31,234 nt of DNA from Thermoanaerobaculia bacterium (lineage in GTDB: Bacteria > Acidobacteriota > Thermoanaerobaculia > Multivoradales > DATKCC01): assembly GCA_035513375.1 (NCBI GenBank), contig DATKCC010000104.1:1-31234 (forward strand). The letters run 5' to 3'. Position numbers and translations under genes: made by a program. Below the pieces are notes generated by a model. The model was not told the origin of the DNA, searched no databases, and worked only from the letters and a program-made list of their open reading frames with translations. The stretch's first letter is position 1. Each line of letters starts with the position of its first letter. This document shows, in pieces, positions 3,411-23,383 of the stretch.

Positions 3411-5816
3411 TCAGCTCCGCGGCGCGACCAGCTCCACCACCACCGGCCCCCGCGCACGACACATGCAGGCCAGGCGGTGCTCGCCGGGCGCGAGCGAGCA
3501 GAGCTCCTCCAGGGTCTCGGCCTCCGAGCCCTCGAGCGGGCCGAGGTGCTCGGCGCCGGAGAGGATGCGGATCGGGTCGCTGCCGCAGATCCCGGCGTGA
3601 CACTCGGCATTGATCGGCAGGCCGTGCTCCTCGGCGGCCTCGCAGATAGTCTGGCCGGGCTTGAGCGCCACTGTCTTGCCGGCGGACTCGAAGGTGACCT
3701 GGGGAGAGGCGGCGGCCGGAGCGGCGACCGCGGAGGCGGCGGCCGGAGCGGCGGTCGGGGACGCGGCAGCGGGAGCGGCCTCGGAGGCGCGCGGCGGCAC
3801 CGCCACCTCCCGTACGGCATCCGGGGCAGGCGCTGGCGCCGGTGCGAGCGCGGCTCCCGGAAGCGCTCCCCCCGTCGGCACGTAGCGTAGGGTCTCCCGC
3901 CCCAGGCGCAGCTCGTCCCCCGGCCGCAGGACGGCGGCCGTTTTGACCTTCACCCAGGTGCCGTTGACGCTCTTGAGGTCCTTGAGCTGGACGCGCCCCT
4001 CCCGGACCGAGACTGCGAAGTGCCGGCGGGAGAGGCTGGGATCGGCGGCGTCGAGGACCGCGTCCGGGGCGTCGCGGCCGAAGATCCTGGCCTCCTCCCC
4101 CACCGGGTGGCGCCCCTGCTCGGTCCCCCGATGATCGAAGTGGCGGAGCTCCCAACCCGCTCCGCTTCCCGGTTCGCCACCGTCTCCCGGCGCGGCCGCC
4201 TGCGCCAGCACCAGGAACTGCCGCCCGGCCCGGAACACCGCCCCGGCCGGAAGCTCGGTGTGCTCGCCCGGGAGGGCCCTGAGGAAGACGCCGGTCGCCC
4301 CGCCGTCATCCCGGAGCACCGGTCCTCCCTCCCCAGGGGCGATCGATGCGTGGCGCTCCGAGAGCGCAGCATCGTCGGGAAAGCGCAGGTCGGCGCCCTC
4401 GCCGCGGCCGATCGTGAACGCGACTCCCGAGGGGAGCGGGTACTCCGCCTCCTCGACTCCGCCCGGGAGAATCCGCACCAGGCGGGCCTCCTCCGGCTCC
4501 GGCAGCGCCTCCTCGCCCGGCGGGCCGGCGGGCTCCGCCGAGAGCTCCCCGGTCTCCCTGGGGATCGGCGCCGCACCCTCCGGCGTCCGGCCGCCCTCCT
4601 CCGCCGGCTCGGCGTCGCGCACCTCCACCCGGATCTCGGTCGCCCCGGCGACCTTCTGGGCCACGACCTCGGCCACCAGCACCCCGTCGCGCAGCGCGCT
4701 CTTGATGTTCCCCCGGTGTTTGACCTCCCGGTAGGTGGCGGGGTCGGCCGCGAAGTCGTCGGTCTCGAAATAGGCCTGCGACAGCATGTCGCCGACCAGG
4801 AACACCCCGGGCTGAACGGACTCGAGGTGGCGGGTGACCAGCATGCGCTTGCGCTCGCCGCCGGCGACCGGGACCATGGGGATCCTCAACTGGGCCAGGA
4901 AGCCCTCGGGGATATCCTCCCCGATGCAGGCGATGCAGCACTCCTTGCGGAACTCGAGGTGCACCGTCTCGTGAGGGCGCCCGTCGAGGCAGCGGCGGTC
5001 GACGCGGATCGCCAGGTACTCTTCACGGTCGTCCCCCACCACCACCGCGGTCGGCTCGGAGAGCGGATGGTAGCGGATGTTGCCGTGACCCAGGTAGGCC
5101 TCGAAGAAGACTTCGGCCAGGGCCTTCGAGACCCGCGGGAGGCGGTCCCCCCGGTAGCTCCAATAGACGGCGGTCGGATCCTCGGCCGCGACCTTGGCGG
5201 CGGAGATGGCGATCACCGCCTCGGCCGCCGAGGTCCCGCCGCCGACCACACAGGCCGGCCGGCCGAGGTAGAGGGCCGGGTCGCTCAGCCGGTAGGCGAT
5301 GCCGTCGGTGTTGCCCGGGATGTCGAAGCGCCGGGGCACCCCCCGGCCGATCGCGACGGCGACCGCGCGCGCGAGGAACCGCCGCTCCTCGCGGGCGTTG
5401 TGGTCCCAGACCAGCGCCCGCCACACCCCCTCGGCCTCGCGCTCGAGGCCGGTGAGCTCGAGCCCCACCTGGACCGGCACCTCGTGCTCCAGGTAGAACC
5501 GCTTCCAGCGCTGATGCATCTCGTCCTTGTCGATCGGCTGGAAGTGCAACTTGCGACAGAGCTCGCCGCCGTCGGGGAAGCGCATCCGGTCGCCGCCGCC
5601 GAAGTCGGGGAGGATGAGCTTGTCCTTCGAGTAGTCCCGGATCCGCTTGAGGACGTCGTCGTAGTCGATGACCAGGGCCGAGAGACCGAGCTCCCGGGCG
5701 CGGAACGCGGCCATGGTGCCGCCGGGTCCGCCGCCCACGACCAGCAGGTCCAGAACCTCCGGCAGAACCCGCGGCAGCTCCCGCATGATCGTGAACCCGG
5801 TCGTCTCCGGCGCCAT
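3411..5816 (-). CDS. TrxR-like FAD/NAD(P)-dependent oxidoreductase fused to two FHA domains and a C-terminal [2Fe-2S] ferredoxin domain
   Basis: LVVGGGPGG (FAD), VVGGGTSA and SYRGDRLPR (NADP-type site), GVFLVGD. FHA1 has IGRG..LSERHA; FHA2 has FGRD..LSRRHF..SVNGT. Ferredoxin motif CHAGICGSD...RLAC. AGGAG RBS about 7 nt upstream of ATG 5816. Confidence 0.9.
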   Translation of the reverse strand: MAPETTGFTIMRELPRVLPEVLDLLVVGGGPGGTMAAFRARELGLSALVIDYDDVLKRIRDYSKDKLILPDFGGGDRMRFPDGGELCRKLHFQPIDKDEMHQRWKRFYLEHEVPVQVGLELTGLEREAEGVWRALVWDHNAREERRFLARAVAVAIGRGVPRRFDIPGNTDGIAYRLSDPALYLGRPACVVGGGTSAAEAVIAISAAKVAAEDPTAVYWSYRGDRLPRVSKALAEVFFEAYLGHGNIRYHPLSEPTAVVVGDDREEYLAIRVDRRCLDGRPHETVHLEFRKECCIACIGEDIPEGFLAQLRIPMVPVAGGERKRMLVTRHLESVQPGVFLVGDMLSQAYFETDDFAADPATYREVKHRGNIKSALRDGVLVAEVVAQKVAGATEIRVEVRDAEPAEEGGRTPEGAAPIPRETGELSAEPAGPPGEEALPEPEEARLVRILPGGVEEAEYPLPSGVAFTIGRGEGADLRFPDDAALSERHASIAPGEGGPVLRDDGGATGVFLRALPGEHTELPAGAVFRAGRQFLVLAQAAAPGDGGEPGSGAGWELRHFDHRGTEQGRHPVGEEARIFGRDAPDAVLDAADPSLSRRHFAVSVREGRVQLKDLKSVNGTWVKVKTAAVLRPGDELRLGRETLRYVPTGGALPGAALAPAPAPAPDAVREVAVPPRASEAAPAAASPTAAPAAASAVAAPAAASPQVTFESAGKTVALKPGQTICEAAEEHGLPINAECHAGICGSDPIRILSGAEHLGPLEGSEAETLEELCSLAPGEHRLACMCRARGPVVVELVAPRS
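3706..3780 (-). repeat. 27-nt-period tandem repeat encoding 3x AAPAAAS in the Ala/Pro linker before the ferredoxin domain
   Basis: GAGGCGGCGGCCGGAGCGGCG is exact at 3706-3726 and 3733-3753, with a degenerate third copy at about 3760-3780. The protein reads EAAPAAASPTAAPAAASAVAAPAAASPQ. Confidence 0.8.
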
Positions 5817-6812: not shown

Positions 6813-8447
6813 TCAGTCGCCCGCCGCCGAGCGGTAGACCACCAACCCGGCGTGGCGGCTTCGCCCGGGGTGGAACTGATGGCAGGTCACGCAGGCGCTC
6901 GACGCCCCGGCCGGAGTATGGCACTCCCGGCAGACGGCGATCGCCGGCAGGTTGTGGGTCTCGGCGGCGTCGGTCGGGTCGTCCTCCCCCTTGGGCTCGC
7001 CGGCGAGGATCTTCGGGATCGCGCCGTGGCACCCGAGGCACGACGGCAGCTGCACGATGTGGGCGCGGTGGTCGAACTCGGCCCGGATGAGCGTGCGCTG
7101 GTCCTTCTGCACCCGCTGGATGGCGGCGTCGGAGACGACGTGGCACTGCCGGCAGGGCTCGGTCAGGTCGAGCGCGAGCCGCTTGAGCTCCATCACCCGC
7201 TCCTCGGAGAGGCCTGGGGCGTAACCCGGCTGCCGGCCCGAGCCGGGCACGAACGGCGCCGTCGAGGCGGTGCCCTCACCGCGCTCGACCCGCTCTTCGG
7301 CCACGGCCAGGAGCTCCTCGAGCCGGCGGAGCTCCTCCTGGACCTCCGGGCCCGGGAGGCTCCGGAGCTCGGCCGCGCGCTCCCGGAGGGTCGCGATCGC
7401 CTCCCGGTAGAGGGCGTCCCCCCCGGCCAGGACCGTTCCCTCGTCGACCCCGGTCGAAAGCAGCGCGGCGAGGCCCAGGTCGCCGTAGAGGGTCGCCCGG
7501 ATCCGGCGCAGGTTCTCGAGGATCCAGGGATCCTCGTGGTAGACCGGCCGCTTGGCGACCGTACCGCCGGCCTCGCGAACCTCGTCGGGATTGGTGAAGA
7601 GAGCCCAGCGGACCCCCGGCCCCCACTCCCGCTGGAGCGCCGAGAGCGTCAACACCCCGGGGCGCGCGGGGTCGGCGGGATCACCGGCCGGCAGCCTCGG
7701 CGTGGCACTGGTCGCCGTGAGGTGGCAGGCGTCGCAATGGCGGTCGAAATCGAGCGGCCGAAACCCGCGCCCCCGGTCGTCCGGCTCGTGGCACTGGAGG
7801 CAGGAGCGCTCCGGGTTACCGAGACCCAGGCGCTTGGTCACCTCCGCGACATGGATCCGGTGGGGAAAACGGAGATTGGGATCATCCCGGAGACCGTCCC
7901 GGATGACCTCGACCTCCGGGTGGCCGCCGCCGAAGGAGCCGAAGGCGTGGCAGCCCGTACACCGGGCGTCGGGGACCCGGGTGAGCGCCGCCCGGCGCCC
8001 GCCGTGCTCGGCGTGGCAGGAAGCGCACGGCAGCTCCCGGCCGACCGCCCGGGCCGCGGCCGGGGTCGCCGTGGGGGCCTCCGCGCCGGCCGCGACGGGC
8101 GCCGGCCGGCGGTAGGCGTAGTGGGCGGCGTAGCGGTACTCTTCCGGCCCCTCCCCCACCCGCCCGTGGCACGCGAGGCACCCGGCGGCCGCCGGAGCCT
8201 CGAAGCCGCCGTGGCAGGCGCCGCAGTTGGCCTCGAAGTTGGCATGGCTCGAAGACAGCGGTCCGGGCGAGACCGGGGTCCGGTCGCCGAGGGCGAACGA
8301 GGCGCCGAGCCAGGCCAGGGCGCCCAGGCAGCCGGCGAAGCCGGCGCCCAGGAGCCAGCGCCGTGGGCTGCGGGTGACGTAGGCGCCGGCGACGGGTAGC
8401 CGCGCGCCGCCGAAGGAGCCTTTGCCGGGCCGTGCCTTCTTCGCCAT
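6813..8447 (-). CDS. N-terminally membrane-anchored decaheme c-type cytochrome
   Basis: Ten CxxCH motifs: CGACH, CLACH, CASCH, CTGCH, CLQCH, CDACH, CRQCH, CLGCH, CRECH, CVTCH. Hydrophobic segment WLLGAGFAGCLGALAWLGASFAL follows a basic N-terminus. Confidence 0.92.
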   Translation of the reverse strand: MAKKARPGKGSFGGARLPVAGAYVTRSPRRWLLGAGFAGCLGALAWLGASFALGDRTPVSPGPLSSSHANFEANCGACHGGFEAPAAAGCLACHGRVGEGPEEYRYAAHYAYRRPAPVAAGAEAPTATPAAARAVGRELPCASCHAEHGGRRAALTRVPDARCTGCHAFGSFGGGHPEVEVIRDGLRDDPNLRFPHRIHVAEVTKRLGLGNPERSCLQCHEPDDRGRGFRPLDFDRHCDACHLTATSATPRLPAGDPADPARPGVLTLSALQREWGPGVRWALFTNPDEVREAGGTVAKRPVYHEDPWILENLRRIRATLYGDLGLAALLSTGVDEGTVLAGGDALYREAIATLRERAAELRSLPGPEVQEELRRLEELLAVAEERVERGEGTASTAPFVPGSGRQPGYAPGLSEERVMELKRLALDLTEPCRQCHVVSDAAIQRVQKDQRTLIRAEFDHRAHIVQLPSCLGCHGAIPKILAGEPKGEDDPTDAAETHNLPAIAVCRECHTPAGASSACVTCHQFHPGRSRHAGLVVYRSAAGD

Positions 8448-8483: not shown

Positions 8484-9326
8484 TCAGAAGTACCACACCG
8501 CCAGTAAGTGGACCGCCACCAGGAGCAGCAGCACGAGCGACGGCGGGACGTGGGCGTAGAGCCACCAGCGCAGCGGCCGCTGAAGGGTGTAGTGAGCGTC
8601 GAGCTCGAGCTTGGTCCGCACCACCGAGCGCAGCTCGTCGAGTACCCCGCGCCCCTCGGCCGGGAGCCGGCCGGCCAGGTAGTCCAGCTCGCGCAGGCGG
8701 TTGGCGATGCCACCCGTGACGTCGGCGAAGTAGATCCACCGGAAGCGGGGCGCCGCCAGCAGCGGGGCGAGGCTCCGCCGGTAGAGGTCCCGCACCGGCC
8801 CGGGCGCCGCCGCCACCAGCTCCTCCGCGCGCCGGCGGAGGACCGCCGCGAGCTCGGGAATGCGCTCGTAGAGCACTTCGGTCGTGAGCGCGGAGGCGAG
8901 CACCCGAGGGAGCCACTTCCGGACCGCCACCCCGGCGAGGCCGCTCGCCGCCACCCACAGGCTGAGGCCCATCAGCCAGCGGTTCAGGCCGCTCCGGGGC
9001 CACTCGAAGCCGGCGTGCATCAGCACCAGCAGGGCGAACAGCGTGCCGCCGTAGACGTGGAGCTGGACCCAGGTCTGGGTCCGGCCGAGACCCGAGCGGA
9101 AGGTCCTCCGGCGGGCCGCGAGCGACCCGGCGCCCGCCAGCAGCAAGGTCGCCAGCGTGCCGTAGGTCAGCCCCCAGGGCGAGGCCGCTCGTGGCTCCGC
9201 CACCGTGAGGTTTAAGGCGTACACGAGCAGCAGGAGCGCCGCGGCGGCGAGGAAGCCCAAGAGCCATTCGGGCCGCTGAGCCCACCGGCCGGCGCCGGCT
9301 GCGAGCGTCGCCTTCGAGATCCTCAT
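8484..9326 (-). CDS. Polytopic membrane protein with four intramembrane His; probable di-heme b (ferric-reductase-like/cytochrome b) subunit
   Basis: Start reassigned to ATG 9326 (7 nt after the upstream stop; 280 aa). About 5-6 hydrophobic helices, with His in WVQLHVYGG, VLMHAG, LYAHVPPS and VAVHLLAV. Confidence 0.75.
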   Translation of the reverse strand: MRISKATLAAGAGRWAQRPEWLLGFLAAAALLLLVYALNLTVAEPRAASPWGLTYGTLATLLLAGAGSLAARRRTFRSGLGRTQTWVQLHVYGGTLFALLVLMHAGFEWPRSGLNRWLMGLSLWVAASGLAGVAVRKWLPRVLASALTTEVLYERIPELAAVLRRRAEELVAAAPGPVRDLYRRSLAPLLAAPRFRWIYFADVTGGIANRLRELDYLAGRLPAEGRGVLDELRSVVRTKLELDAHYTLQRPLRWWLYAHVPPSLVLLLLVAVHLLAVWYF

Positions 9327-9333
9327 CGCGGCC

Positions 9334-11007
9334 TCATCGCCGGAGCAGCCCTTCGAACTCCTCGAGGCTCCCGATCCGGTAGGCGCAGCCGTTGGGGCAG
9401 CTCTCGACACAGGCGGGCCCTCCCTCCCTCGTGTAGCAGAGGTCGCACTTGCTCGCCACCAGTCGGTCCTTGCCCCGGAGCCCCTCGGGGATCATGTCGT
9501 CCGGCCAGGTCGCGCCGGTCTCGTGCATCACGATGGCGTCGTAGGGGCAGGCACGGGCGCAGCTCCCGCAGCCGATGCAGATCGTCTCGTCGACCGCCAC
9601 CACCTGGCCGAAGCCGGTCCGGTGGATGGCGCCCGTCGGGCAGCCCACCAGGCAGACCGGATCACGGCAGTGGTAGCAGGCGCTCGCGATCTGGAGGTTG
9701 GCGAGCTTGTCCCCTTCGCGGATGAAGCGGGCGCGGCCGCCGTGGGTCCGCTCGCAGGCCCGGACGCAGTCGTCGCACCGGGTGCAGGCCGCCAGGTCGA
9801 TGACCAGCATGGCGCTCCCCTGCACCAACCCGGTGTCGACGGCGGTCTCGAGCAGCTCGGCGTGGGCCAGGTCCCGGCGGCTGAAGCCGGTTTCCCGGAT
9901 GCGGTCGACCGCCGAGCGCCAGAGCCGCTTCTCCACTTCCGGGAACTGGCGGAGCATCTGAACGAGCTCGCCCCGAGGCAGGCGCACGAGCTCGGCATAC
10001 TCGACCGAGGTGGCGCTCGCGGTCCAGCCCCGGGAGTCGTCGACCAGGAGCTCGACCTCGCCCAGGGTCATCCCCTTCGACAGGTAGTTGACCGTGATCT
10101 CACCCTGGTCGAGGCGCTGGGTGAGCTGGAGGAATCCGGAGCGCACCAGGAAGAGCCCGTCGACCGGCTCGCCTTCGCGGGTCAGCGCCTCTCCGGGCTC
10201 GAGCGAGACTAGGTCCACGACCTCCCGGATGGCGGCGAGGAAGACCGGCGGGCAGCCGTGGAAGAGGGGTGTCGCGTCGAGCTGGCCGGCGAGGGAGCGG
10301 CGGCGGTAGGCCGCGTCCAGGCGCTCCTTGAGGGCCTCCGACTTGCGCCGCATCGCCCGGAGCGCCGGCATCCGGAGGTGGACAAGGGTGGCCTCGGAAG
10401 CGGTCCGGGCGGTGACCGACTGGGGCCAGCCGCTCATCGCGCCGATCTCGCCGAAAAGCTCGCCGGGCCCCAGGGTCTCGCGGCTCCCGCGCGGCAGGTC
10501 GAAGTCGAGGGCGGCGAGGAAGGTGATCTCCCCCGGCTTGGCCGCGCGCTGCGCCAGGACGGTCCCCCGCGGCAGCGAGCCGGTGTCTCCGCCATCGTCC
10601 AAGCCCTCCTCCCCCCCCGGCGGTCGCGCCAGGGAGGCGAGCCGCGGCACCTCGAAGAAGCCGGTCCGGTGGAGGTCGAAGATCGGCTGGTCCGCCGCGC
10701 CGCCCGCTCCGAGGCTCACCTCGACCTCGCCTTCGACGACGAAGAAGGCGAGGTCGATATAGGCCCCCTCCTCGAACAGCACGGCCCCCGGGCGCCAGCG
10801 GCCGATCGAGACGTCCGGCCCGATCCGCTCGAGGAAGGCATCGTCGTAGGCGTCGAAGAGCGCGATCCCCCGGAGGGTCGCGAGCGACGGCTGCTCGGAG
10901 AGCGACTCGAGCCCGGTGCGCTCGCCGAACGACGACCACCGGTCACGGTAGAGCTCGCGCCGCTTGAGGAAGGTGCGGCCGACCTCTGGCTCGGCGTGAT
11001 CCGTCAT
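9334..11007 (-). CDS. Tandem cNMP-binding (CAP_ED-like) domains fused to a four-cluster [4Fe-4S] domain of the DmsB/NrfC/HybA type
   Basis: Start ATG 11007 overlaps the upstream stop (ATGA; 557 aa). cNMP-type segments LFEEGAYIDLAFFVVEGEV..GELFGEIG and LTREGEPVDGLFLVRSG..LGEVE. Cys motifs CTRCDDCVRAC, CYHCRDPVCLVGCP, CIGCGSCARACP, KCDLC...PACVESCP. Confidence 0.92.
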   Translation of the reverse strand: MTDHAEPEVGRTFLKRRELYRDRWSSFGERTGLESLSEQPSLATLRGIALFDAYDDAFLERIGPDVSIGRWRPGAVLFEEGAYIDLAFFVVEGEVEVSLGAGGAADQPIFDLHRTGFFEVPRLASLARPPGGEEGLDDGGDTGSLPRGTVLAQRAAKPGEITFLAALDFDLPRGSRETLGPGELFGEIGAMSGWPQSVTARTASEATLVHLRMPALRAMRRKSEALKERLDAAYRRRSLAGQLDATPLFHGCPPVFLAAIREVVDLVSLEPGEALTREGEPVDGLFLVRSGFLQLTQRLDQGEITVNYLSKGMTLGEVELLVDDSRGWTASATSVEYAELVRLPRGELVQMLRQFPEVEKRLWRSAVDRIRETGFSRRDLAHAELLETAVDTGLVQGSAMLVIDLAACTRCDDCVRACERTHGGRARFIREGDKLANLQIASACYHCRDPVCLVGCPTGAIHRTGFGQVVAVDETICIGCGSCARACPYDAIVMHETGATWPDDMIPEGLRGKDRLVASKCDLCYTREGGPACVESCPNGCAYRIGSLEEFEGLLRR

Positions 11008-13109
11008 CCGCCCCCTCCGGTGGCGGCGAACAGCGCGTCGATGCGCTCCTTCACCAGCAGCAGGAGCTCGTCGAGCGGGCGATCGGCGGCGTCTGCGGGG
11101 AGCGCTTCGAGATCGATCGGGGCTGCCCACCCGGAGGTCGGCCCGGCCAGCGGCGCTCCGCCGGCGGTCGAAGCCCCAGCGCCCGGGACGAACGCCGGAC
11201 GCGCCGCCGGGATCGACCGGGCGCCGTAGCCGCTCGCCGGCCCGGTGAGCCCGCCCGGGCCGCTGCCGGTCCCGGCGCTCCGCGAAGCAGCAGTGCCAGC
11301 GGCGCTACGGACGACCGCCGGGTCGAGCCGGGCCACCCGCACCTGGGGCACCGGCCCGCGGCTCTGGAGGGTCTGGCGGTAGGCGGCGCCGAGGGCCGTC
11401 GCTGCCGGCTGGGGGCGGTCCCAGTGGACGATCTTGGCGCTCCGCTCGGCCAGCTCGAATCCCTCCGACCCCGGCGGATGGCCGCTCGCGAGGAGCCGGG
11501 GGTCGGTTACGTAATGGCAGCTCGAGCAGGCCCGGGCCCGGGTGGCCGGGTCGCCGAGATCTGCCATGCCGAGCCTTCGGCGCTCGGCCGGGCTCGCCTC
11601 CTGGTGGCTTTTGAGGTACTCACCGGCGGGGCCGTGGCAGTGCTCACAGCTCACCCCGTCGGCCACCTCCCAGGCCTCGTCGCCGGTGGGGACCGTGCCG
11701 TGGCAGCCCATGCACACCGAGCCCCCTTTGACCATCAGCTCGCCCGCGGCGCGCCCGTAGTAGAGCGTGGCGATCTCGACCGCCTTCGGCCGGCGCTCGA
11801 GGAGTGGCCGCGCGGAGCGGTTGTGGGGATCGCGAAACCACCACTCGGTCTGGCGGGCGTGGCGGTGGCAGGAGCCGCACTCGCCCGCGCCTACGACCCG
11901 CGCCCTGCCGAGAGGCTCCCGGATCCGCTTGCGCAGCTCCCCCTCGACCGCCGGGATCGCCGGGCGGGCAGGCCCCGGTGCGGACGCCGGGGTCGCGCCG
12001 CCACCGCTGGCCGCGGCGCCCGCGTCCGGCGCGGGGCCTCCGGCGGCCTCCGGCGCGGCGGCGAGCAGCTCGGCGAAGGGGTCGGCCGCCTCCCCCTCCC
12101 CACCCTCGACCGCGGCGCCGGTGCCGCCGGCGAGAACGGCATCGAGAGCGCCGAGCCGGCTCCCGTCGTGCGCCTCGCTGAAGCTCCTCGCCGCCTCAGC
12201 CAGCCGCTCGAACCCATGCGTGAGCTCGGCCCGGTTGCCGGCCTCGAGCCGGAGCCCTCCGGCGGTCGCGAGGAGCCGATCGACCTCGGGCACCGAGACC
12301 ACGCGCCCGATCCGGGAGAGGTCGCGGAGCGCCCGCTCTGCGCGGCGGACCAGGGCTCGCGCGTAGCCGCTCTCGGCGTTGCCTGCCGCCGCCAGCGCCC
12401 GCAGGCCGTGCTCGAGCTCGAGCGCCGGCCCGAGCACCGCGAGCTTGCGCCGGAGCTCGGGCGGCAGGGGGGCGTTTCCCGAGCGGCCGGAGGCCACGAA
12501 GTTGTGGCGGATCGCGTCGATCCGGGCCGCCAGGTCGAAGCTCCCGCCGGAGGTGTGACCGCCGGTCTCGACCAGCGTCTCCTCGGGCACCAGGTGGCAG
12601 CCGTAGCAGCGCGCCACGAGGTCGTAGATCCGCTCCGGGGTGTACATGCCGAGGGCGACGTTGCGCTCGACCCGCTCCCGGCGCTGGGCAGCGCTCTCGG
12701 CCGCGCGCCGGACCCGCTGGCCCTGGAAGGTGTTGTGGACCGTGATCCAGCCGCGCGCCACGCCGTGGCAGGACTCGCAGGAGACCCCCGCGAAGGCCGT
12801 GACCCGGCCGCCGGAGAGCGTAGGGGTGAAGTGGCAGCTCAGACAGAGGCTGTCGTGCCGGATCAGGCGCACACCGAGCTTGCCGGCGATCTCCTGGGCC
12901 CGGGGCCGACGATTGAGCGGCTCCTCGGAGGCGTAGAGCCTGGCGTGGGCCGTCTCCCTCCAGACCGCAAACTCGGAGTCGTGGCACTCGCCGCAGGCCT
13001 CGGGACCGACGGTCATCGCCGGGTCGAGTCGGGTCGCGGAGGCCCCCGGTGGGGGCCCGGCCGCGAGGGGGATCAGGGTCGCACCGACGAGCACCAGCCT
13101 ACGGATCAC
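11004..13109 (-). CDS. Secreted octaheme c-type cytochrome made of two c554-like tetraheme repeats
   Basis: Signal peptide MIRRLVLVGATLIPLAAG. CGECH, CLSCH, CESCH, CYGCH and CGSCH, CMGCH, CEHCH, CSSCH. GTG start overlaps the upstream stop (GTGA). Confidence 0.9.
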   Translation of the reverse strand: MIRRLVLVGATLIPLAAGPPPGASATRLDPAMTVGPEACGECHDSEFAVWRETAHARLYASEEPLNRRPRAQEIAGKLGVRLIRHDSLCLSCHFTPTLSGGRVTAFAGVSCESCHGVARGWITVHNTFQGQRVRRAAESAAQRRERVERNVALGMYTPERIYDLVARCYGCHLVPEETLVETGGHTSGGSFDLAARIDAIRHNFVASGRSGNAPLPPELRRKLAVLGPALELEHGLRALAAAGNAESGYARALVRRAERALRDLSRIGRVVSVPEVDRLLATAGGLRLEAGNRAELTHGFERLAEAARSFSEAHDGSRLGALDAVLAGGTGAAVEGGEGEAADPFAELLAAAPEAAGGPAPDAGAAASGGGATPASAPGPARPAIPAVEGELRKRIREPLGRARVVGAGECGSCHRHARQTEWWFRDPHNRSARPLLERRPKAVEIATLYYGRAAGELMVKGGSVCMGCHGTVPTGDEAWEVADGVSCEHCHGPAGEYLKSHQEASPAERRRLGMADLGDPATRARACSSCHYVTDPRLLASGHPPGSEGFELAERSAKIVHWDRPQPAATALGAAYRQTLQSRGPVPQVRVARLDPAVVRSAAGTAASRSAGTGSGPGGLTGPASGYGARSIPAARPAFVPGAGASTAGGAPLAGPTSGWAAPIDLEALPADAADRPLDELLLLVKERIDALFAATGGGG

Positions 13110-15410: not shown

Positions 15411-15460
15411 GGTCGTCTCCTATTTGACATGAATTCGAAAGCTACGAACCCGTGTCCTTA

Positions 15461-15490
15461 AGTGTAACCGACTGCACGGAGAATGCTCAA
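15461..15490 (-). promoter_or_regulatory. Probable internal sigma70-type promoter (TTGAGC-N18-TACACT) driving the lower half of the cluster
   Basis: Minus-strand TTGAGC (15490-15485) and TACACT (15466-15461) lie in a 91-nt, locally AT-rich gap upstream of ATG 15410. Confidence 0.5.
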
Positions 15491-15501
15491 GCCGCCGGCG
15501 G

Positions 15502-16164: not shown

Positions 16165-16177
16165 GGCACCCCCGCCA

Positions 16178-17320: not shown

Positions 17321-17384
17321 CTCCCATCCGTATCGTGGTTCGCGGGCTCGGCGGATTTCTGCCTCGGCAAGGCCATGGGTCCCG

Positions 17385-18077: not shown

Positions 18078-19861
18078 CTGCTTCCCCCTCTCCCCTTCGG
18101 CGGCTCGCCGGTAGCGCTCAGTGCGAGGACCTGGACGGCAGCGCGACGACCCGCCTCCGCGGCGGCCTCGGCGAGGGCGGTGAGCTCGCTGGGGGCGAGC
18201 TTCCCCTGGCTGTCGCCGGTGCCCACTTCGACGGTGCCGGCCCCCAGGAGCCGCCCGTTGGCCCCGTCGTACGCGCGCAGGTCGAGCACGGCCCGGCCGG
18301 TGTAGAAGCGGCCGACGCTCGGCTGCGCCTCCCCCTCGAAGCGCCCCACCACCACGACCGAGGCGCGGTAGCGCCGGCCGGCCTCGGCGATCCGGCCCGG
18401 ACCGGCGCCGGCGAGGTCGAGCCCCGAGGAGCCGGCACCGGGAGCGACCGCTTCATGGCCGCCGGCGATCAGCTCGTCGAGGAGCGCGCTCTCGGCCGCC
18501 CGGGCCGCGCCGGCCGGCTCGCCGGCGACCGCCAGCAGGAAGCGAGGGGAGCCGGCCGGCGCCGGGGCCGGACCGGGATTCGGCGGGCCGGGCGCCGGCA
18601 CGGGCGCCGAGGCGGTCTCGGTGGCCGAGTCTCCGGTCCCACCGGTCGACGGCAGCGGGAGCGGAATGGCGTCGGCTGCCGTCGCGCCGAGCGCGCCGTT
18701 CGGCGCGCCGGTCGCCGCCCCCTCGTCCCCGGGCTCCCCTGCCTCCGGCTCACCGTGGTCCGCGGCCGCGACCGGGTCCGGGTCGAGCCCGACCTCGAGA
18801 GCCTCGGGCTCCCCGCCCGCATCCGGCCGGAGGGACCAGAGCGCCAGCGCCACCGCCGCCACCAGGACGGCGGCCAGCGCGATCCACGAGGCGGTCCTCG
18901 GCGGGAGCCGGACCGCCGTCCGATAGGTGCCTCCCGCGGAGTCGCCGCCGGCGGGCGGCGAGCTCGGGACGACCCGCGTGGGCACCGCCAGGACCGTGGG
19001 CGCCAAGCGGGCCGGGTCCACCTGCTCATCGCCGGGCCGCCCGGTCCCGGCCAGGCCCGAGCGGACGGCCCGGAGCTCGGCGATTACCGGCGCGAGGCCG
19101 GGGTAGCGGGCGTCCGGGTCCTTGGCCAGGCAGCGGTCGATCACCGCCGCCAGCCGTTCCGGGCATTCGGGCCAGGCCGCCGGCAGCGGCGCGTGCACCT
19201 CGTGGGCTATCTGGTAGAGCACCGCCGACAGGCTTTCGCCTTCGAACGGCCGCCGGTAGGAGAGCAGCTCGTAGGCCAGGACGCCGAACGAGAAGATGTC
19301 CGCCCGCCGGTCCACGGGCTCGCCCCGGAGCTGCTCTGGCGGCAGGTAGCCGGCGGTCCCCATGGTCATCCCGGTCCGGGTGAGCTGGTCTTCAGCCGAC
19401 AGCAGCTTGGCGATGCCGAAGTCCATGATCTTGATCCGGCCGCCGTCGACCACCCGCATGTTGGCGGGCTTGATGTCGCGATGGACGATCTCCCGCGAAT
19501 GGGCGTAGTCGAGGGCTTCGGCGATCTCGATCAACCATTCGAGGCGGCGCTCGCGATCGACCGGGTCGCGCCGGGCGATGACCCGGTCGAGGTCCTCCCC
19601 CGGGAGAAACTCCTGGACCAGGTAAGAGCGCCCGCCTTCGGTGCCGAAGTCGAAGACGGTGGTGATGCCGGAGTGCTGGAGGCCGGCGGCGATCTCCGCC
19701 TCACGAAGGAACCGCGCCCGGAGCTCCGGGTCGGGGGCCGAGAGAGTCTTGATCGCGACCGGGCGCTTCAGGTCCGGGTCGCGGCCCCGATAGACCGTCC
19801 CGAACCCGCCTTCGCCGATCTGCTCTTGAACCTCATACTTCCCGAAGCTCTTCGGCGTCAT
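18074..19861 (-). CDS. Transmembrane Hanks-type Ser/Thr protein kinase with a periplasmic alpha/beta domain
   Basis: GEGGFG, VAIK, HRDIKPAN, DFG, GTAGYLPPE, DIFSFG. TM helix WIALAAVLVAAVALALWSL. Start ATG 19861, alternative TTG 19879. Confidence 0.94.
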   Translation of the reverse strand: MTPKSFGKYEVQEQIGEGGFGTVYRGRDPDLKRPVAIKTLSAPDPELRARFLREAEIAAGLQHSGITTVFDFGTEGGRSYLVQEFLPGEDLDRVIARRDPVDRERRLEWLIEIAEALDYAHSREIVHRDIKPANMRVVDGGRIKIMDFGIAKLLSAEDQLTRTGMTMGTAGYLPPEQLRGEPVDRRADIFSFGVLAYELLSYRRPFEGESLSAVLYQIAHEVHAPLPAAWPECPERLAAVIDRCLAKDPDARYPGLAPVIAELRAVRSGLAGTGRPGDEQVDPARLAPTVLAVPTRVVPSSPPAGGDSAGGTYRTAVRLPPRTASWIALAAVLVAAVALALWSLRPDAGGEPEALEVGLDPDPVAAADHGEPEAGEPGDEGAATGAPNGALGATAADAIPLPLPSTGGTGDSATETASAPVPAPGPPNPGPAPAPAGSPRFLLAVAGEPAGAARAAESALLDELIAGGHEAVAPGAGSSGLDLAGAGPGRIAEAGRRYRASVVVVGRFEGEAQPSVGRFYTGRAVLDLRAYDGANGRLLGAGTVEVGTGDSQGKLAPSELTALAEAAAEAGRRAAVQVLALSATGEPPKGRGGSR

Positions 19862-20006
19862 GTCGTCTCGCAGCTCCAAAGCTGTCTCGCCCCTGTCCTC
19901 CCAACGCTCATCGAGTCATCCCACTCTCATTCGCTCCTGCTTCCACCCGGGCCGCTGGTCGAGCCGCTCCGGCGAGAACCGCGGCTTCGATGTACTCCCG
20001 GGCTCC

Positions 20007-21599
20007 TCAGAACTTCCTCCGGAGCTCGACCCGCACGCCGTAGAGGTTCTCGCGGTCCGCCAGCCAGCCGTGCATGGCGTCGGCGCGGACGATCCAGGCG
20101 TTGGTCACCGGCTTCTGCCAGCGGATCCCGAGGGCGTACTCGTCGCCCAGGGCCTCGGTCACGCCGCCGCCGATCCTCTGGACCACCGCCCCCTCGATCA
20201 CGATCTGCTGATCGAGGGCGAAGAGGTACTGGACGCCCAGGGCGCCGCCGAAGGCGTCGTGGGCGCGGTCGTCTAGCTTGGGGTAGCCGGTCAGGCCGTC
20301 GGTCTCGAAGTTGATGCCGGTGTTCTTGAGCACCCCGCCCGCGTCCGCCGCCCGCACCAGCGCCTGGGGCCGGTCGAAGCCCGCGAACAGGTTCAGGTAG
20401 GGAACCAGGGTATACGGCCGGGAGGTCATGAGGTAGCTCTCGACCAGCACGAGCGCTCCGTCGGCGGTCTTCTCGCGCCCCGGAACGGGCTCCTGCCCGA
20501 GGTTCGCGATCAGGCGTACGCTGTTGGCGACGCGGCCGCCGTAGCGGCGCGAGAATGCGACCGTCAGGTTGTGGTAGTCGAGCTCGTCGAGGCCGGCGTC
20601 GACGAAGCCGTAGCCGAGCTCCCAGAAGCCCTCGTTGGCCTCGACGAAGCCGGCGACGCCGAACAGGTCGGCGGTGTCGGCAAGGGTGCCGTCGGCCCGG
20701 GTGACGGCGGCGGTCGTCACCTCGTCGAAGGCGGCGAAGAAGGTCAGGTCGATGTTGCTCGCGCCGAGGGCGTTGCTGCTGAAGGCGGGGATGGTGAAGG
20801 CCCCCCCGGTGACCGCGTCCTCGGTCCACACCCCGTTCTGGGTGAAGAGCGGGAAGAGGCCGACCGCGAAGGGCAGGTCGATCTGGTTCTCCCGGCCGCT
20901 CATCCCGCGGAAGATCGGCCCCACCTCGCCCTCGAAGAACAGGGTGTCGAGGTCGAGGTCGAGCTCCTCCTCGAAGCCTTCATTGCGCCCCGAGATGTCG
21001 TAGCGGGTGAAGCGGCCGTCCCTCTCCGTCGGGCGGACGAATAGGTGCAGCCGCTCGGTCGCGGTGAGCTTGAAGTCGAGCTCGAGGTTGAGCCGCGTGG
21101 CGACCGTCGCCTGGTAGGACTTCCCCGAGGCGTCGGCGGCGCCGAAGTCGTTGTAGGCGGCGGCGGTTCGCAGGTCGCCGTAGACCATGAGGTGGGGCGA
21201 GGCCGGGTTCTTGGCGCCGAACCACGCCTTGGCCGGCTCGAGCGGTCCTTCGCGGTAGAGCGGGCGGCCGAGCTCGAGCAGCGGGCGAGCCGTCCGGTTG
21301 AGGTGCTTGTCGCCGTAGATGGCGAGCTGCGCCGCCGGGTCGTACGGCTCGTGGGCGTAGGTCGGATCGGGCTTGAACACCCGCCGGTCGTGCTCGACGA
21401 GCTCGGCGCCCGCGGGCAGCTCCGGCCCCTCCTTCTCCTCGCCGTGGGCGGAGGTCTCGGCGGCGCCGGGGGCAGCCTCGGGGCTCGCTCCGTCGGTGAC
21501 CGCGGCCGCCGGGGCCGTGCCGGCCAGGATCGCTGCGAGCACCAGGGCGAGAGCGGCGAGGAGGACTGGTACGGACGGGATCGTCGGTCGCTGGATCAT
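20007..21599 (-). CDS. Large outer-membrane beta-barrel (porin-like) protein
   Basis: Start reassigned to ATG 21599 behind a GAGGGGGAGAG RBS (530 aa). Signal peptide, many amphipathic strands, C-terminus YGVRVELRRKF. Confidence 0.75.
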   Translation of the reverse strand: MIQRPTIPSVPVLLAALALVLAAILAGTAPAAAVTDGASPEAAPGAAETSAHGEEKEGPELPAGAELVEHDRRVFKPDPTYAHEPYDPAAQLAIYGDKHLNRTARPLLELGRPLYREGPLEPAKAWFGAKNPASPHLMVYGDLRTAAAYNDFGAADASGKSYQATVATRLNLELDFKLTATERLHLFVRPTERDGRFTRYDISGRNEGFEEELDLDLDTLFFEGEVGPIFRGMSGRENQIDLPFAVGLFPLFTQNGVWTEDAVTGGAFTIPAFSSNALGASNIDLTFFAAFDEVTTAAVTRADGTLADTADLFGVAGFVEANEGFWELGYGFVDAGLDELDYHNLTVAFSRRYGGRVANSVRLIANLGQEPVPGREKTADGALVLVESYLMTSRPYTLVPYLNLFAGFDRPQALVRAADAGGVLKNTGINFETDGLTGYPKLDDRAHDAFGGALGVQYLFALDQQIVIEGAVVQRIGGGVTEALGDEYALGIRWQKPVTNAWIVRADAMHGWLADRENLYGVRVELRRKF

Positions 21600-21613
21600 G
21601 GTCTCTCCCCCTC

Positions 21614-23383
21614 TCACTCGACCGCGAACTCGACGGTGTAGGGGTGGATGTCCACCATCCACTCGTTCATCGCCCGCTCCATGTCCTTGGTGGCGCCCAC
21701 GAACTTCATGAAGTAGAGCGGTTCGGCCCGGCTCCTCATCCGGACCGCCAGGCGGTAGAGCCCCGGTGTCTCGAGCAGCCTGCCGGGCACCGAGTACTTC
21801 GCGTCCTTGCTCCCCAGCGGCGGGATGCTGCGCTTCTCCATGCGGATGAACGGCGGGTGGTTGAGGATGCTCGTCGGGACGTTGGCCGGCCGGATGAACG
21901 GGATCTGGTCGGCGTCGAACGGCACCGGCAGGTACATCTCCCGGTCGGTGCCCTTCAGGTTGGTGGTCAGGAACTTGCTCTGGAGGTTGAAGAGCTGGCC
22001 GTCGTGGGGGAGCGTGCCGGCCTGGACGTCGAGCGAGTGGAGGTCGGCCATGTCGCCGTGGCTGTCGACGTAGCCCGATTCCCAGACCGTCTCGCCGGCG
22101 GGGTCGATCAGCGCCACGTTGAGCCAGATCTCCGGCTGGGCGCCGAGGGAGCCCGAGGGCATGTTGTGCCCCTTGTTGAGGTTGGTGACCCGGTAGTGGA
22201 AAGCGAGGTCCCGGCCGGTCCTGGGCTGGCGGCGGAAGTACGGGCCGTCGATCCGCGAGCTCGACTCCATGAGGTCGTGGCGGAGCGCGGCCTTCTCTTC
22301 GATCTTGCGCAGGTTCTCGTCGACGATCAGGCGCGCTTCCACCCGGTCGTCCTCGTAGGCCCAGGGCTCAGGGAAGTCGATCTCGACCGCGCCCTCAGCC
22401 ACCCGGTCCTCGAAGTCGGGCGTGCCCCAGCCGGCCCGGTAGTCGAAGGCCAGCCAGTCCCTTGCGGAGAAGCGCCGGGCGGCCGGGTGGTGGGGGAAGA
22501 TCCCGGGATGGGTGATCGGGTAGCCGGGGCCGACGAAGGCGTGGTTGGTCCGCTTCCTCGCGTCGTTGACCGTGCGGCCGTTGACGATCGCCGCGGGGCC
22601 GGTGGCGTAGCCGCTCGGCTGGCCCGGCCGGGTGCTCATGTGGCAGTCCTGGCAGGTGATCCCCTCGGCCAGGGCGGGTGAGGCCCGGTACTCGTCCCAC
22701 ACCGTCTCGAGCTTGATCCCGGGGTGGACCGCCACCTGGTGGCAGGAGAGGCAGAACTCCGACTGCCCGAGCTGCTCGAATCGGATCCCCTGGCGGTGGA
22801 TGTCGAGGCCCATCTCCCCCTCGGTCGCCGCCACGTTGTATGCCTCCCGGTTCTCGATCACCTCGGCCACTCCCGCGCCGCCGATCGAGCCGTAGACCGG
22901 CTCGCGAATGTCGCCGCGGAGGATCCGCCGCTCGCCGTTGACCTTGCCGTAGTACTCGTCCACCCGGTGGCAGGTGACGCAGGTCACCCCCTCGCGCGAG
23001 ACCTGCGAGCGCTCCCACAGCGGCATCGCCCGCGACTCGCCGAGCGAGGTGCTCACCGTGGCGTGGCAGCGCATGCAGAAGTAGCCGACCGTGCCCTGGG
23101 AGAGGTCGTTAATCCGCTGCTCGAACTTGTGGAACATCGGCGAGATCGAGGCGTAGGCGTGCGAGGAGAACCGCCACTCCTCGTACTGGGCCGGGTGGCA
23201 GGCGGCGCACTCCGAGGCCGACGGGAACAGGGTCTCGGCGAGGATCGCGGCGTGGGGGTCGGCGGCAACGTCTGCCGCCGCCCGCGGCTCGGGCGGCGCG
23301 TCCTGCTCCTGCGCCCCAACGGCCAGGCCGGCCGCGGTGAGCGCGAGCAGGCAAAGGCAGACGAGGCTGAACCCAGCTCTCAT
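21614..23383 (-). CDS. Secreted pentaheme c-type cytochrome (c554-like N-terminus) with a C-terminal beta-rich domain
   Basis: Start ATG 23383 behind an AGGAG RBS (589 aa). Signal peptide. CAACH, CMRCH, CVTCH, CLSCH, CQDCH, with extra His candidates (SSHA, TNHAF, KGHNMPSG). Confidence 0.9.
   Translation of the reverse strand: MRAGFSLVCLCLLALTAAGLAVGAQEQDAPPEPRAAADVAADPHAAILAETLFPSASECAACHPAQYEEWRFSSHAYASISPMFHKFEQRINDLSQGTVGYFCMRCHATVSTSLGESRAMPLWERSQVSREGVTCVTCHRVDEYYGKVNGERRILRGDIREPVYGSIGGAGVAEVIENREAYNVAATEGEMGLDIHRQGIRFEQLGQSEFCLSCHQVAVHPGIKLETVWDEYRASPALAEGITCQDCHMSTRPGQPSGYATGPAAIVNGRTVNDARKRTNHAFVGPGYPITHPGIFPHHPAARRFSARDWLAFDYRAGWGTPDFEDRVAEGAVEIDFPEPWAYEDDRVEARLIVDENLRKIEEKAALRHDLMESSSRIDGPYFRRQPRTGRDLAFHYRVTNLNKGHNMPSGSLGAQPEIWLNVALIDPAGETVWESGYVDSHGDMADLHSLDVQAGTLPHDGQLFNLQSKFLTTNLKGTDREMYLPVPFDADQIPFIRPANVPTSILNHPPFIRMEKRSIPPLGSKDAKYSVPGRLLETPGLYRLAVRMRSRAEPLYFMKFVGATKDMERAMNEWMVDIHPYTVEFAVE

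What the first reader, a model, noticed from the sequence alone, without database searches (positions are those of the whole stretch)
20007..23383. Pentaheme cytochrome-porin pair that does not look like MtrAB
Seen: the first two genes, 14 nt apart, encode a 589-aa secreted pentaheme protein and a 530-aa barrel. In the cytochrome the hemes are confined to the N-terminal half and about 300 aa of beta-rich sequence follow. The barrel has an N-terminal extension of about 100 aa before the first strands. Established: adjacent multiheme + porin genes are the hallmark of porin-cytochrome conduits (MtrAB, PioAB, OmcB/OmbB). Inference: an independent porin-cytochrome family forming the outer terminal of the chain, or a substrate channel feeding a periplasmic heme enzyme.
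Basis: partly seen in the sequence, partly recalled or inferred. Interest (0 to 1): 0.65.

Follow-up and report, generated by a model that had tools for sequence, protein, structure and literature searches.

The report
PtdA-PtdB pentaheme cytochrome and porin pair
The two genes are real and always travel together, but they belong to an already described and still untested cytochrome-plus-outer-membrane-channel system (PCC4/Ptd), and the small 18-strand barrel looks like a solute channel serving a periplasmic five-heme protein, not an Mtr-type sleeve around a heme wire.

Summary
On the minus strand, a 589-aa exported protein with five CXXCH motifs (21614-23383) lies 14 nt upstream of a 530-aa outer-membrane barrel (20007-21599).

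The pair is not an undescribed family. It is ptdA/ptdB of the ptdABCDEFG cluster (bioRxiv 10.1101/2023.11.21.568154). The same system was described earlier as "PCC4" (He et al. 2017, PMC5566968). Neither has been tested at the bench. The other ptd genes (D, E, F, G and a PtdC analogue) lie downstream in this window.

In 80 genome loci from many phyla, the barrel gene lies beside the pentaheme gene in 77 of 77 loci with room, 76 of them directly downstream on the same strand. In 30 relatives the two are present or absent together.

PtdA is a full-length structural homologue of Thermochromatium tepidum pentaheme c552 (Z 14.4), with a heme cap plus an Ig-like stem. This is the family of Geobacter ExtKL/MccSep, a periplasmic polysulfide reductase encoded near a porin-like gene.

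PtdB models as an 18-strand-class barrel (Occ/OprD, MOMP, ChiP and AlgE at Z 22-26; MtrB at Z 11.9). Its lumen is strongly conserved and charged.

My reading, at moderate confidence, is that periplasmic PtdA is served by a specific PtdB channel at the outer end of an NAD(P)H-fed chain. This scan has reported the same system several times on other DNA.

The parts
21614..23383 (-). ptdA: exported pentaheme c-type cytochrome, 589 aa (stop codon included)
   Evidence: Five CXXCH motifs. Pfam Cytochrome_C554 at residues 58-139. 100% cluster hit. All 40 aligned homologues have exactly five CXXCH and no lipobox.
22484..23266 (-). PtdA heme cap, about residues 40-300. Holds all five CXXCH plus invariant non-motif His75, His85, His196, His281 and His292.
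   Evidence: invariant columns; all five motifs align with the five of T. tepidum c552 (5ZE8), E 4e-10.
21620..22258 (-). PtdA C-terminal Ig-like beta-sandwich (residues 376-588). It carries very conserved loops that are poorly modelled, around the GHN-P-SGS motif at 405-420 and at residues 437-522.
   Evidence: strands, pLDDT; invariant residues; 5ZE8 aligned over model residues 50-586, Z 14.4; generic Ig-like sandwiches at Z 8-10.
21600..21613 (-). 14-nt ptdA-ptdB spacer with a purine-rich ribosome-binding site
20007..21599 (-). ptdB: outer-membrane beta-barrel protein, 530 aa (stop codon included)
   Evidence: No Pfam or NCBIfam family. The C-terminus is RRKF.
21204..21431 (-). PtdB conserved N-terminal extension (residues 57-132), which precedes the barrel. 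It may be a plug or a docking segment.
   Evidence: eight invariant residues; pLDDT 64-77, little secondary structure; mean conservation 0.63, against 0.27 for residues 1-56.
20010..21203 (-). PtdB barrel proper (residues 133-530). 18-strand class, conserved charged lumen, long conserved loop at 411-448.
   Evidence: OpdQ Z 25.8, MOMP 25.4, ChiP 23.0, AlgE 22.4, MtrB 11.9; lumen-facing conservation 0.84 against 0.66 for lipid-facing residues, p 3e-10.
11004..13109 (-). Context: PtdD-like periplasmic cytochrome, here octaheme (two c554-like modules)
   Evidence: synteny.
9334..11130 (-). Context: PtdE, a cNMP-binding plus 4Fe-4S protein. The ORF is listed as found; the true start is probably later.
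8484..9410 (-). Context: PtdF, an inner-membrane DUF4405 / ferric-reductase-like protein
   Evidence: PMC5566968 (two HX13H motifs in the PCC4 inner-membrane protein).
6813..8447 (-). Context: PtdG, a decaheme cytochrome
3411..5816 (-). Context: PtdC analogue, a Pyr_redox_2 flavoprotein-FHA-FHA-2Fe-2S fusion
   Evidence: Also found in L012 and L029.

Best explanation
These are ptdA and ptdB, the outer module of the Ptd (= PCC4) redox gene cluster. PtdA is a soluble periplasmic five-heme cytochrome of the PHC family, with a helical heme cap and an Ig-like stem. PtdB is an 18-strand-class outer-membrane channel with a highly conserved, charged lumen and a conserved N-terminal extension. The most likely electron path starts at cytoplasmic NAD(P)H. 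It passes through a flavin/2Fe-2S reductase (PtdC type), the cNMP-binding 4Fe-4S protein PtdE and the two-heme-b membrane protein PtdF, then the periplasmic PtdG and PtdD cytochromes, and ends at PtdA. PtdA stays on the periplasmic side, probably docked on PtdB. There it reduces a defined soluble acceptor or shuttle that PtdB lets through the outer membrane. The whole heme cap does not sit inside the barrel. Shown here: gene identity, family membership, strict pairing, the folds, and the conservation pattern. Inferred: the direction of electron flow, PtdA-PtdB contact, the channel function, and the substrate, which remains unknown.
For: Family identity. [quoted passage not shown] The MAG SS_bin_59 listed in Table S7 is my locus L054, at 63% (PtdA) and 50% (PtdB) identity. 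Locus L025 shows heme counts of 4, 10 and 5 in the order D-E-F-G-A-B-C. The PCC4 description also matches, including Hyphomicrobium loci that lack the Fe-S gene.

Pairing. The barrel gene lies beside ptdA in 77 of 77 loci with room, 76 of them directly downstream on the same strand. Among 30 relatives, the genomes with a 41-44% PtdA homologue are the ones with an adjacent 28-35% barrel homologue.

PtdA. It matches 5ZE8 at Z 14.4 over both domains. It has no lipobox and exactly five hemes in 40 of 40 homologues. It is the most conserved Ptd component, at a median 65% identity against 35-57% for the others.

PtdB. It matches monomeric 18-strand specific channels at Z 22-26 and MtrB at only Z 11.9 with rmsd 8.8. 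Lumen-facing residues are far more conserved than lipid-facing ones, with 12 Arg/Lys and 10 Asp/Glu at 90% conservation or more.

Precedent. Geobacter ExtKL/MccSep is a PHC-family pentaheme encoded near the porin-like ExtI. It proved to be a periplasmic polysulfide reductase.
Against: No structure of a complex could be predicted, and no model coordinates were available. I therefore could not show that PtdA and PtdB touch, or whether the N-terminal extension plugs the barrel. PtdA has five invariant non-motif histidines for five hemes and no conserved extra Cys. All hemes may therefore be bis-His, which would make it an electron carrier with no obvious open catalytic heme. Geobacter porin-cytochrome complexes are thought to use barrels of only about 20-21 strands, so small size alone does not exclude a conduit. 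He et al. proposed the opposite direction of flow. No recurrent neighbouring gene points to a substrate.
Confidence: 0.45

Rival explanations
1. True porin-cytochrome conduit. Part of PtdA, for example its conserved loop or hairpin region or one heme edge, inserts into PtdB. Electrons then cross the outer membrane through the complex to insoluble or impermeant extracellular acceptors. This would be a two-membrane, NOX/ferric-reductase-like exporter of electrons from NAD(P)H.
For: Both papers that describe the cluster read it this way. The pair is strictly coupled. PtdA has very conserved loops in the Ig-like domain that AlphaFold2 cannot place, and PtdB has a conserved N-terminal extension; either could be an interface. 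Geobacter complexes are thought to use barrels of about 20 strands. Cyc2 shows that a small barrel can hold a single heme domain (my own knowledge).
Against: The barrel is in the 18-strand class and resembles Occ/ChiP/AlgE, not MtrB. PtdA is a globular cap-and-stem protein like 5ZE8, and in the relative MccSep the hemes form a branched Y, not a linear wire. There is no surface lipoprotein cytochrome in the cluster. The outermost components are the most conserved ones, the opposite of what is reported for Geobacter conduits.
Confidence: 0.25
2. Inward electron flow, as in the PCC4 model of He et al. 2017. An extracellular or periplasmic donor such as Fe(II), Mn(II) or a sulfur species is oxidised at PtdA/PtdB. 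The electrons pass through PtdD/G to the membrane protein PtdF and on to quinone or cytoplasmic acceptors.
For: PCC4 was found in Zetaproteobacteria iron oxidisers, in Hyphomicrobium from a pyrite-oxidising culture and in Fe/Mn-removing water filters. The PHC relative c552 of T. tepidum comes from a sulfur oxidiser.
Against: The cluster consistently includes cytoplasmic NAD(P)H-type flavin/2Fe-2S and 4Fe-4S proteins. Moving electrons inward against the membrane potential to such low-potential centres is unfavourable (inference). The system occurs in hundreds of species from soils, groundwater, lakes and oceans that are not known iron oxidisers.
Confidence: 0.15
3. PtdB is a general porin or a polymer exporter (AlgE/Wzi-like) that shares only an operon with PtdA and has no functional link to it.
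For: Fold similarity to AlgE, Wzi and MOMP.
Against: Adjacency in 77 of 77 loci across phyla, and joint presence or absence in relatives, even in a subfamily only 28-44% identical. No polysaccharide genes recur nearby.
Confidence: 0.03

Closest known systems
ptdABCDEFG cluster (Elbon, Stewart and Glass; bioRxiv 10.1101/2023.11.21.568154). [quoted passage not shown]
   Same: Same two protein families in the same order and tight spacing. Same partner genes in the window (PtdD, E, F and G types). 58-67% (PtdA) and 43-56% (PtdB) identity to loci from the taxa listed in that paper, including the MAG SS_bin_59 of its Table S7.
   Different: This copy comes from a soil metagenome genome with 73% GC, not a saline habitat. 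A Ser/Thr kinase and about six exported proteins (CsgG-like and others) lie between ptdB and ptdD. PtdD is octaheme, not tetraheme. PtdC is replaced by a Pyr_redox_2-FHA-FHA-2Fe-2S fusion, and there is an extra double-FHA protein.
PCC4 putative porin-cytochrome cluster (He, Barco, Emerson and Roden 2017, PMC5566968)
   Same: A porin plus three periplasmic cytochromes with 4, 5 and 10 hemes, a ferric-reductase-like inner-membrane protein, a pfam13247 Fe-S protein and no extracellular cytochrome. The Hyphomicrobium loci without the Fe-S gene (their Subgroup I) are reproduced in my set as L080, L082 and L086.
   Different: That paper proposed inward flow from an extracellular donor to the quinone pool. 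It did not analyse the fold of the barrel or of the pentaheme.
PHC family: T. tepidum pentaheme cytochrome c552 (PDB 5ZE8) and Geobacter ExtKL/MccSep (PDB 9WT8)
   Same: Five CXXCH motifs in the same order. Heme cap plus Ig-like stem. Z 14.4 to 5ZE8 over model residues 50-586. ExtKL is likewise encoded near a porin-like outer-membrane protein, ExtI.
   Different: PtdA is about 150 aa longer, with conserved insertions. It lacks the heme-2 Cys ligand and the selenocysteine of MccSep: 34 of 40 homologues have no non-heme Cys. It scores 25 bits against a cut-off of 250 for the ExtKL model NF040886. Whether PtdB is related to ExtI was not tested.
MtrAB / PioAB / MtoAB porin-cytochrome conduits (PDB 6R2Q)
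   Same: Adjacent genes for a periplasmic multiheme cytochrome and an outer-membrane barrel, and no extracellular cytochrome (as in PioAB and MtoAB).
   Different: Five hemes in a globular two-domain protein, against a linear decaheme. An 18-strand-class barrel, against 26 strands. No MtrB_PioB Pfam match in 40 of 40 members. MtrB scores only Z 11.9 at rmsd 8.8.
Occ/OprD, ChiP, MOMP and AlgE 18-strand monomeric channels
   Same: Best structural matches of the PtdB barrel, Z 22-26 over 320-348 residues.
   Different: Sequence identity is only 7-13% and there is no Pfam match. PtdB has a conserved N-terminal extension of about 100 aa that these proteins lack.

Membership tests
Ptd / PCC4 (PtdA-PtdB) | Exported cytochrome with exactly five CXXCH, followed by a heme-free C-terminal beta-sandwich | tested here: met
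Ptd / PCC4 (PtdA-PtdB) | Outer-membrane barrel gene immediately downstream of the pentaheme gene | tested here: met
   14-nt spacer. 76 of 77 loci show the same arrangement.
Ptd / PCC4 (PtdA-PtdB) | Sequence similarity to a published Ptd locus | tested here: met
   L054 is from MAG SS_bin_59, listed in Table S7, at 63% and 50% identity. The contig number in the table differs from that of my locus, so the match is at the level of the MAG.
Ptd / PCC4 (PtdA-PtdB) | Partner genes: tetraheme, cNMP/4Fe-4S protein, ferric-reductase-like membrane protein, decaheme, NAD(P)H flavoprotein | tested here: met
   All are present downstream in the window, with variations: octaheme PtdD, a different flavoprotein type, and inserted genes.
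Ptd / PCC4 (PtdA-PtdB) | PtdA is homologous to T. tepidum pentaheme c552 | tested here: met
   E 4e-10 by profile. Z 14.4 by structure.
MtrAB / PioAB / MtoAB | Decaheme MtrA/DmsE-family periplasmic cytochrome | tested here: not met
   Five hemes. TIGR03508 scores 33.9 bits against a cut-off of 192.
MtrAB / PioAB / MtoAB | MtrB/PioB-family barrel of about 26-28 strands | tested here: not met
   No MtrB_PioB hit in any of 40 members at E up to 10. 19 DSSP strand segments. 6R2Q_B scores Z 11.9 at rmsd 8.8, against Z 25.8 for OpdQ.
ExtKL / MccSep polysulfide reductase | Heme 2 with a Cys ligand and a nearby selenocysteine | tested here: not met
   There are no in-frame TGA codons. No conserved non-heme Cys. 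NF040886 scores 25 bits against a cut-off of 250. Active-site description.
NrfA pentaheme nitrite reductase | CXXCK active-site heme and the Cytochrom_C552 (PF02335) fold | tested here: not met
   All five motifs are CXXCH. PF02335 E 0.93; NrfA model 12.5 bits against a cut-off of 595.
Cyc2 fused cytochrome-porin | Heme-binding motif fused to the barrel polypeptide | tested here: not met
   No CXXCH in PtdB.
Geobacter OmaB-OmbB-OmcB type complex | A surface lipoprotein multiheme cytochrome encoded with the porin | tested here: not met
   No lipobox on PtdA in 40 of 40 homologues, and there are no other cytochrome genes beside the pair. Similarity of PtdB to OmbB was not tested.
Occ/OprD or AlgE channel families | Sequence membership (Pfam OprD PF03573, Alginate_exp PF13372) | tested here: not met
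   No hit in 40 members. The similarity is in fold only.

The most novel reading that the evidence does not exclude
PtdAB would be a new kind of outer-membrane redox terminal. A PHC-type pentaheme docks a conserved heme-free loop or hairpin, or one heme edge, into an 18-strand barrel. With PtdC, E, F, G and D it forms a two-membrane, cyclic-nucleotide-gated system that sends cytoplasmic NAD(P)H electrons out of the cell. That would be a bacterial counterpart of NOX/ferric reductases, used by hundreds of aerobic soil and ocean species, for example for reductive iron acquisition.
Probability: 0.2. Interest if true: 0.75.

Novelty: new member of a known kind. Interest (0 to 1): 0.35.

Why it matters
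The Ptd/PCC4 system is widespread. It is reported as highly transcribed in ocean oxygen-deficient zones, yet nobody knows what it does. Whether it exports electrons, oxidises metals or is a periplasmic enzyme with its own channel bears on iron, sulfur or nitrogen cycling by common aerobes. This window adds a soil member with kinase/FHA control genes built in. It does not add a new system.

Tried and rejected
1. MtrAB, PioAB, NrfA, Cyc2 and ExtKL membership were each tested and rejected (see the membership table).

2. Barrel-cytochrome fusion. A 1201-aa gene call in the Thermoanaerobaculaceae locus (L007 = L012) suggested a natural PtdB-PtdD fusion. Reading the DNA showed that PtdB ends in RRKF plus TGA, overlapping the ATG of ptdD. 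The long ORF is a wrong-frame or frameshift artefact.

3. Fetching a Geobacter ExtKL/ExtI sequence through the control genomes of the genome search failed, because Geobacter is not among them. Residue-level mapping of the MccSep active-site loop onto PtdA, and a PtdB-ExtI comparison, were therefore not done.

4. Foldseek of PtdA against the PDB gave only generic Ig-like hits. The exhaustive VIA-align search was needed to find 5ZE8.

5. No sigma-70-like promoter or intrinsic terminator was found around the pair. This is uninformative at 73% GC.

6. Neighbourhood clustering found no transporter, TonB receptor or enzyme that would reveal a substrate. The only further recurrent neighbour was a CHASE2-adenylate/guanylate cyclase, in 10 loci.

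7. Model coordinates are not exposed, so the lumen diameter and the position of the N-terminal extension could not be measured.
Full report
**1. The observation**

The window is 73% GC, and the two genes lie on the minus strand.
- The first ORF starts at ATG 23383, behind a GAGAGGAGA ribosome-binding site, and stops at 21614. It encodes 589 aa.
- A 14-nt purine-rich spacer follows. The second ORF starts at ATG 21599 and stops at 20007, encoding 530 aa.
- Third-position GC is 0.96 and 0.95, as expected for real genes in this genome.
- The first protein has a Sec-type signal peptide with no lipobox. It has five CXXCH motifs at residues 59, 103, 135, 211 and 244 and no other heme motif.
- The second protein has a signal peptide, no heme motif and ends in RRKF.

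**2. Folds**

AlphaFold2 models were built on 40-sequence alignments.

The barrel model is confident (mean pLDDT 81). Its first long strand starts at residue 133, and DSSP finds 19 strand segments. An exhaustive structural comparison with 48,161 PDB chains gave these scores, each over 320-348 residues at rmsd 3.2-3.6:

| Structure | Z |
|---|---|
| OpdQ | 25.8 |
| Campylobacter MOMP | 25.4 |
| OccAB3 | 25.1 |
| E. coli chitoporin | 23.0 |
| AlgE | 22.4 |
| Maltoporin | 19.4 |
| MtrB (6R2Q_B) | 11.9 (rmsd 8.8) |

- The top matches are monomeric 18-strand channels. MtrB scores no better than pilus ushers or TonB receptors. Foldseek and the ESM Atlas agree.
- No Pfam or NCBIfam family matches the protein. 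None of 40 family members matches MtrB_PioB, OprD or Alginate_exp, even at E up to 10.
- Residues 57-132 form an extension ahead of the barrel with eight invariant residues, moderate pLDDT and little secondary structure.

The cytochrome model is less confident in the heme region, because no hemes are modelled. It shows a clear C-terminal beta-sandwich at residues 376-588.
- A profile search of PDB sequences found the pentaheme cytochrome c552 of Thermochromatium tepidum (5ZE8, E 4e-10). All five CXXCH motifs align.
- The exhaustive structural search put 5ZE8 first, at Z 14.4 with 333 residues aligned across model residues 50-586. That covers both domains.
- The 'about 300 aa of beta-rich sequence' is therefore a roughly 125-aa linker followed by a roughly 210-aa Ig-like domain.

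**3. What it is**

Homologues are abundant: more than 3000 for the cytochrome and more than 1400 for the barrel. They are 60-76% and 50-60% identical across phyla.

Neighbourhoods in other genomes show a recurrent set of genes:
- a c554-like cytochrome;
- a cNMP-binding/4Fe-4S protein;
- a small membrane protein;
- a second multiheme cytochrome;
- the pentaheme;
- the barrel;
- an FAD/NAD/2Fe-2S reductase.

The same partner genes lie downstream in this window:
- octaheme at 11004-13109;
- cNMP/4Fe-4S protein at 9334-11130;
- DUF4405 membrane protein at 8484-9410;
- decaheme at 6813-8447;
- double-FHA protein at 5819-6802;
- flavoprotein-FHA-FHA-2Fe-2S fusion at 3411-5816.

A literature search found that this cluster was named ptdABCDEFG in bioRxiv 10.1101/2023.11.21.568154.
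[quoted passage not shown] PtdB is 'a porin'.
- The authors note the homology to T. tepidum c552 and report high transcription of ptdAB in an ocean oxygen-deficient zone.
- They state that the function 'remains completely unknown'.
- Their Table S7 lists the MAG Gammaproteobacteria SS_bin_59. My locus L054 comes from that MAG and is 63% (PtdA) and 50% (PtdB) identical to the window proteins.
- The isolate genome Kordiimonadales IMCC3096 (L025) shows the textbook arrangement, with 4, 10 and 5 hemes.

Earlier notes of this scan pointed to an older description, which I checked.
- He et al. 2017 (PMC5566968) described 'PCC4': a porin, three periplasmic cytochromes with 4, 5 and 10 hemes, a ferric-reductase-like inner-membrane protein and a pfam13247 Fe-S protein.
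- Their Hyphomicrobium subgroup lacks the Fe-S gene. My Hyphomicrobium loci L080, L082 and L086 reproduce exactly that.

The pair is therefore a member of a family described twice from genomes and never tested.

**4. Co-occurrence**

- In 76 of these it is directly downstream on the same strand.
- The three exceptions are contigs that end at or near the pentaheme gene.
- 41 of 79 loci hold all seven ptd genes within 10 kb.

Among 30 relatives of the window's genome, nine have a 41-44% identical PtdA homologue, each with a 28-35% identical barrel gene next to it. A tenth has the barrel at a contig start. The other twenty have neither.

The pairing therefore holds even in a divergent subfamily. 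The window's own copy is closer to copies in other phyla than to those of its relatives. The best match is Thermoanaerobaculaceae at 76%. This suggests horizontal acquisition, but I did not test that with a tree.

**5. How it most likely works**

*Steric argument.* An 18-strand barrel has roughly the inner width of OprD or maltoporin (established geometry of beta-barrels). PtdA is a globular cap-and-stem protein like 5ZE8. In its relative MccSep the five hemes form a branched Y, not a line. The whole heme cap cannot sit inside such a barrel the way MtrA sits in the 26-strand MtrB.

*Conservation argument.* Within the strands, lumen-facing positions are much more conserved than lipid-facing ones: 0.84 against 0.66, Mann-Whitney p 3e-10.
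- They include 12 Arg/Lys and 10 Asp/Glu at 90% conservation or more.
- A 38-residue loop (411-448) is also highly conserved.
- This is the pattern of a specific channel or a tightly packed plug, not of a passive sleeve.

PtdA is the most conserved Ptd component, at a median 65% identity; PtdG is the least, at 35%. In Geobacter conduits the reported trend is the opposite: the parts exposed to the environment vary most.

*Precedent.* Geobacter extHIJKL encodes a PHC-family periplasmic pentaheme (ExtKL) and a porin-like protein (ExtI). It was first counted among the outer-membrane conduits. ExtKL has since been reported to be MccSep, a periplasmic polysulfide reductase whose substrate must somehow cross the outer membrane.

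*Context.* The cytoplasmic NAD(P)H-type flavoprotein, the Fe-S protein and the two-heme-b membrane protein point to outward flow of low-potential electrons that bypasses quinones (inference from domain content).

I therefore favour PtdA as a periplasmic terminal reductase or carrier docked at a specific PtdB channel. My confidence is 0.45.

Points against this reading:
- PtdA has five invariant non-motif histidines for five hemes and no conserved extra cysteine. It may therefore have no open catalytic heme.
- Its most conserved segments are Ig-domain loops that the model cannot place. These could equally be a PtdB interface that carries electrons.

A genuine conduit remains a live rival at 0.25. 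So does the inward Fe(II)/Mn(II)-oxidation model of He et al., at 0.15.

**6. Other evidence**

The contig comes from a soil metagenome. A metatranscriptome from ice holds contigs 90-96% identical to parts of both genes. This is weak evidence that close relatives are transcribed, because DNA carry-over cannot be excluded.

**7. Verdict**

- This is a new, rearranged soil member of the PCC4/Ptd family.
- Other agents of this scan reached similar conclusions on other genomes. I saw those notes only after reaching the Ptd identification.

Noticed in passing
window 13106-19879 (minus strand): In this genome a Ser/Thr kinase (18074-19879), a CsgG/LpoB-like lipoprotein (17385-18077) and several exported proteins without Pfam matches lie between ptdB and ptdD. 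Two FHA-bearing proteins follow ptdG. None of the kinase or CsgG-like genes is found at this position in the 80 other loci, apart from kinases nearby in a few (L012, L013, L056, L078).
   Followed up: partly
L013:1368-4175 and 9 other loci: A CHASE2-adenylate/guanylate cyclase (935 aa) neighbours the ptd cluster in 10 of 80 loci. This fits regulation of the cNMP-binding Fe-S protein PtdE by a cyclic nucleotide.
   Followed up: no
L009-L011; G002, G010, G011, G015, G019, G021, G022, G024, G029: Relatives in the same order carry a divergent ptdA-ptdB-ptdD trio, 41-44%, 28-35% and about 42% identical. The window's copy is 60-76% identical to copies in other phyla. This suggests two subfamilies or horizontal transfer. 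No tree was built.
   Followed up: partly
L012:11700-13201 (= L007): The ptdB gene of the Thermoanaerobaculaceae long-read MAG changes frame between its N- and C-terminal parts. A public gene call merges it with ptdD into a 1201-aa protein. This is probably an assembly frameshift, not a fusion.
   Followed up: partly
L080, L082, L086 (Hyphomicrobium / Hyphomicrobiaceae): These loci lack a detectable PtdE (cNMP/4Fe-4S) gene and have ptdD, F and G on the opposite strand. This matches 'PCC4 Subgroup I' of He et al. 2017.
   Followed up: partly
window 26837-29322 (plus strand): A ParA/MinD-like ATPase (26837-27649) is followed by an ABC1/UbiB-type atypical kinase (27646-29322). They appear unrelated to the ptd genes.
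   Followed up: no
AlphaFold DB cluster hits: Longer relatives exist: an 899-aa protein 50% identical to PtdA and a 970-aa protein 37% identical to PtdB. Each carries about 300-440 extra residues of unknown nature.
   Followed up: no
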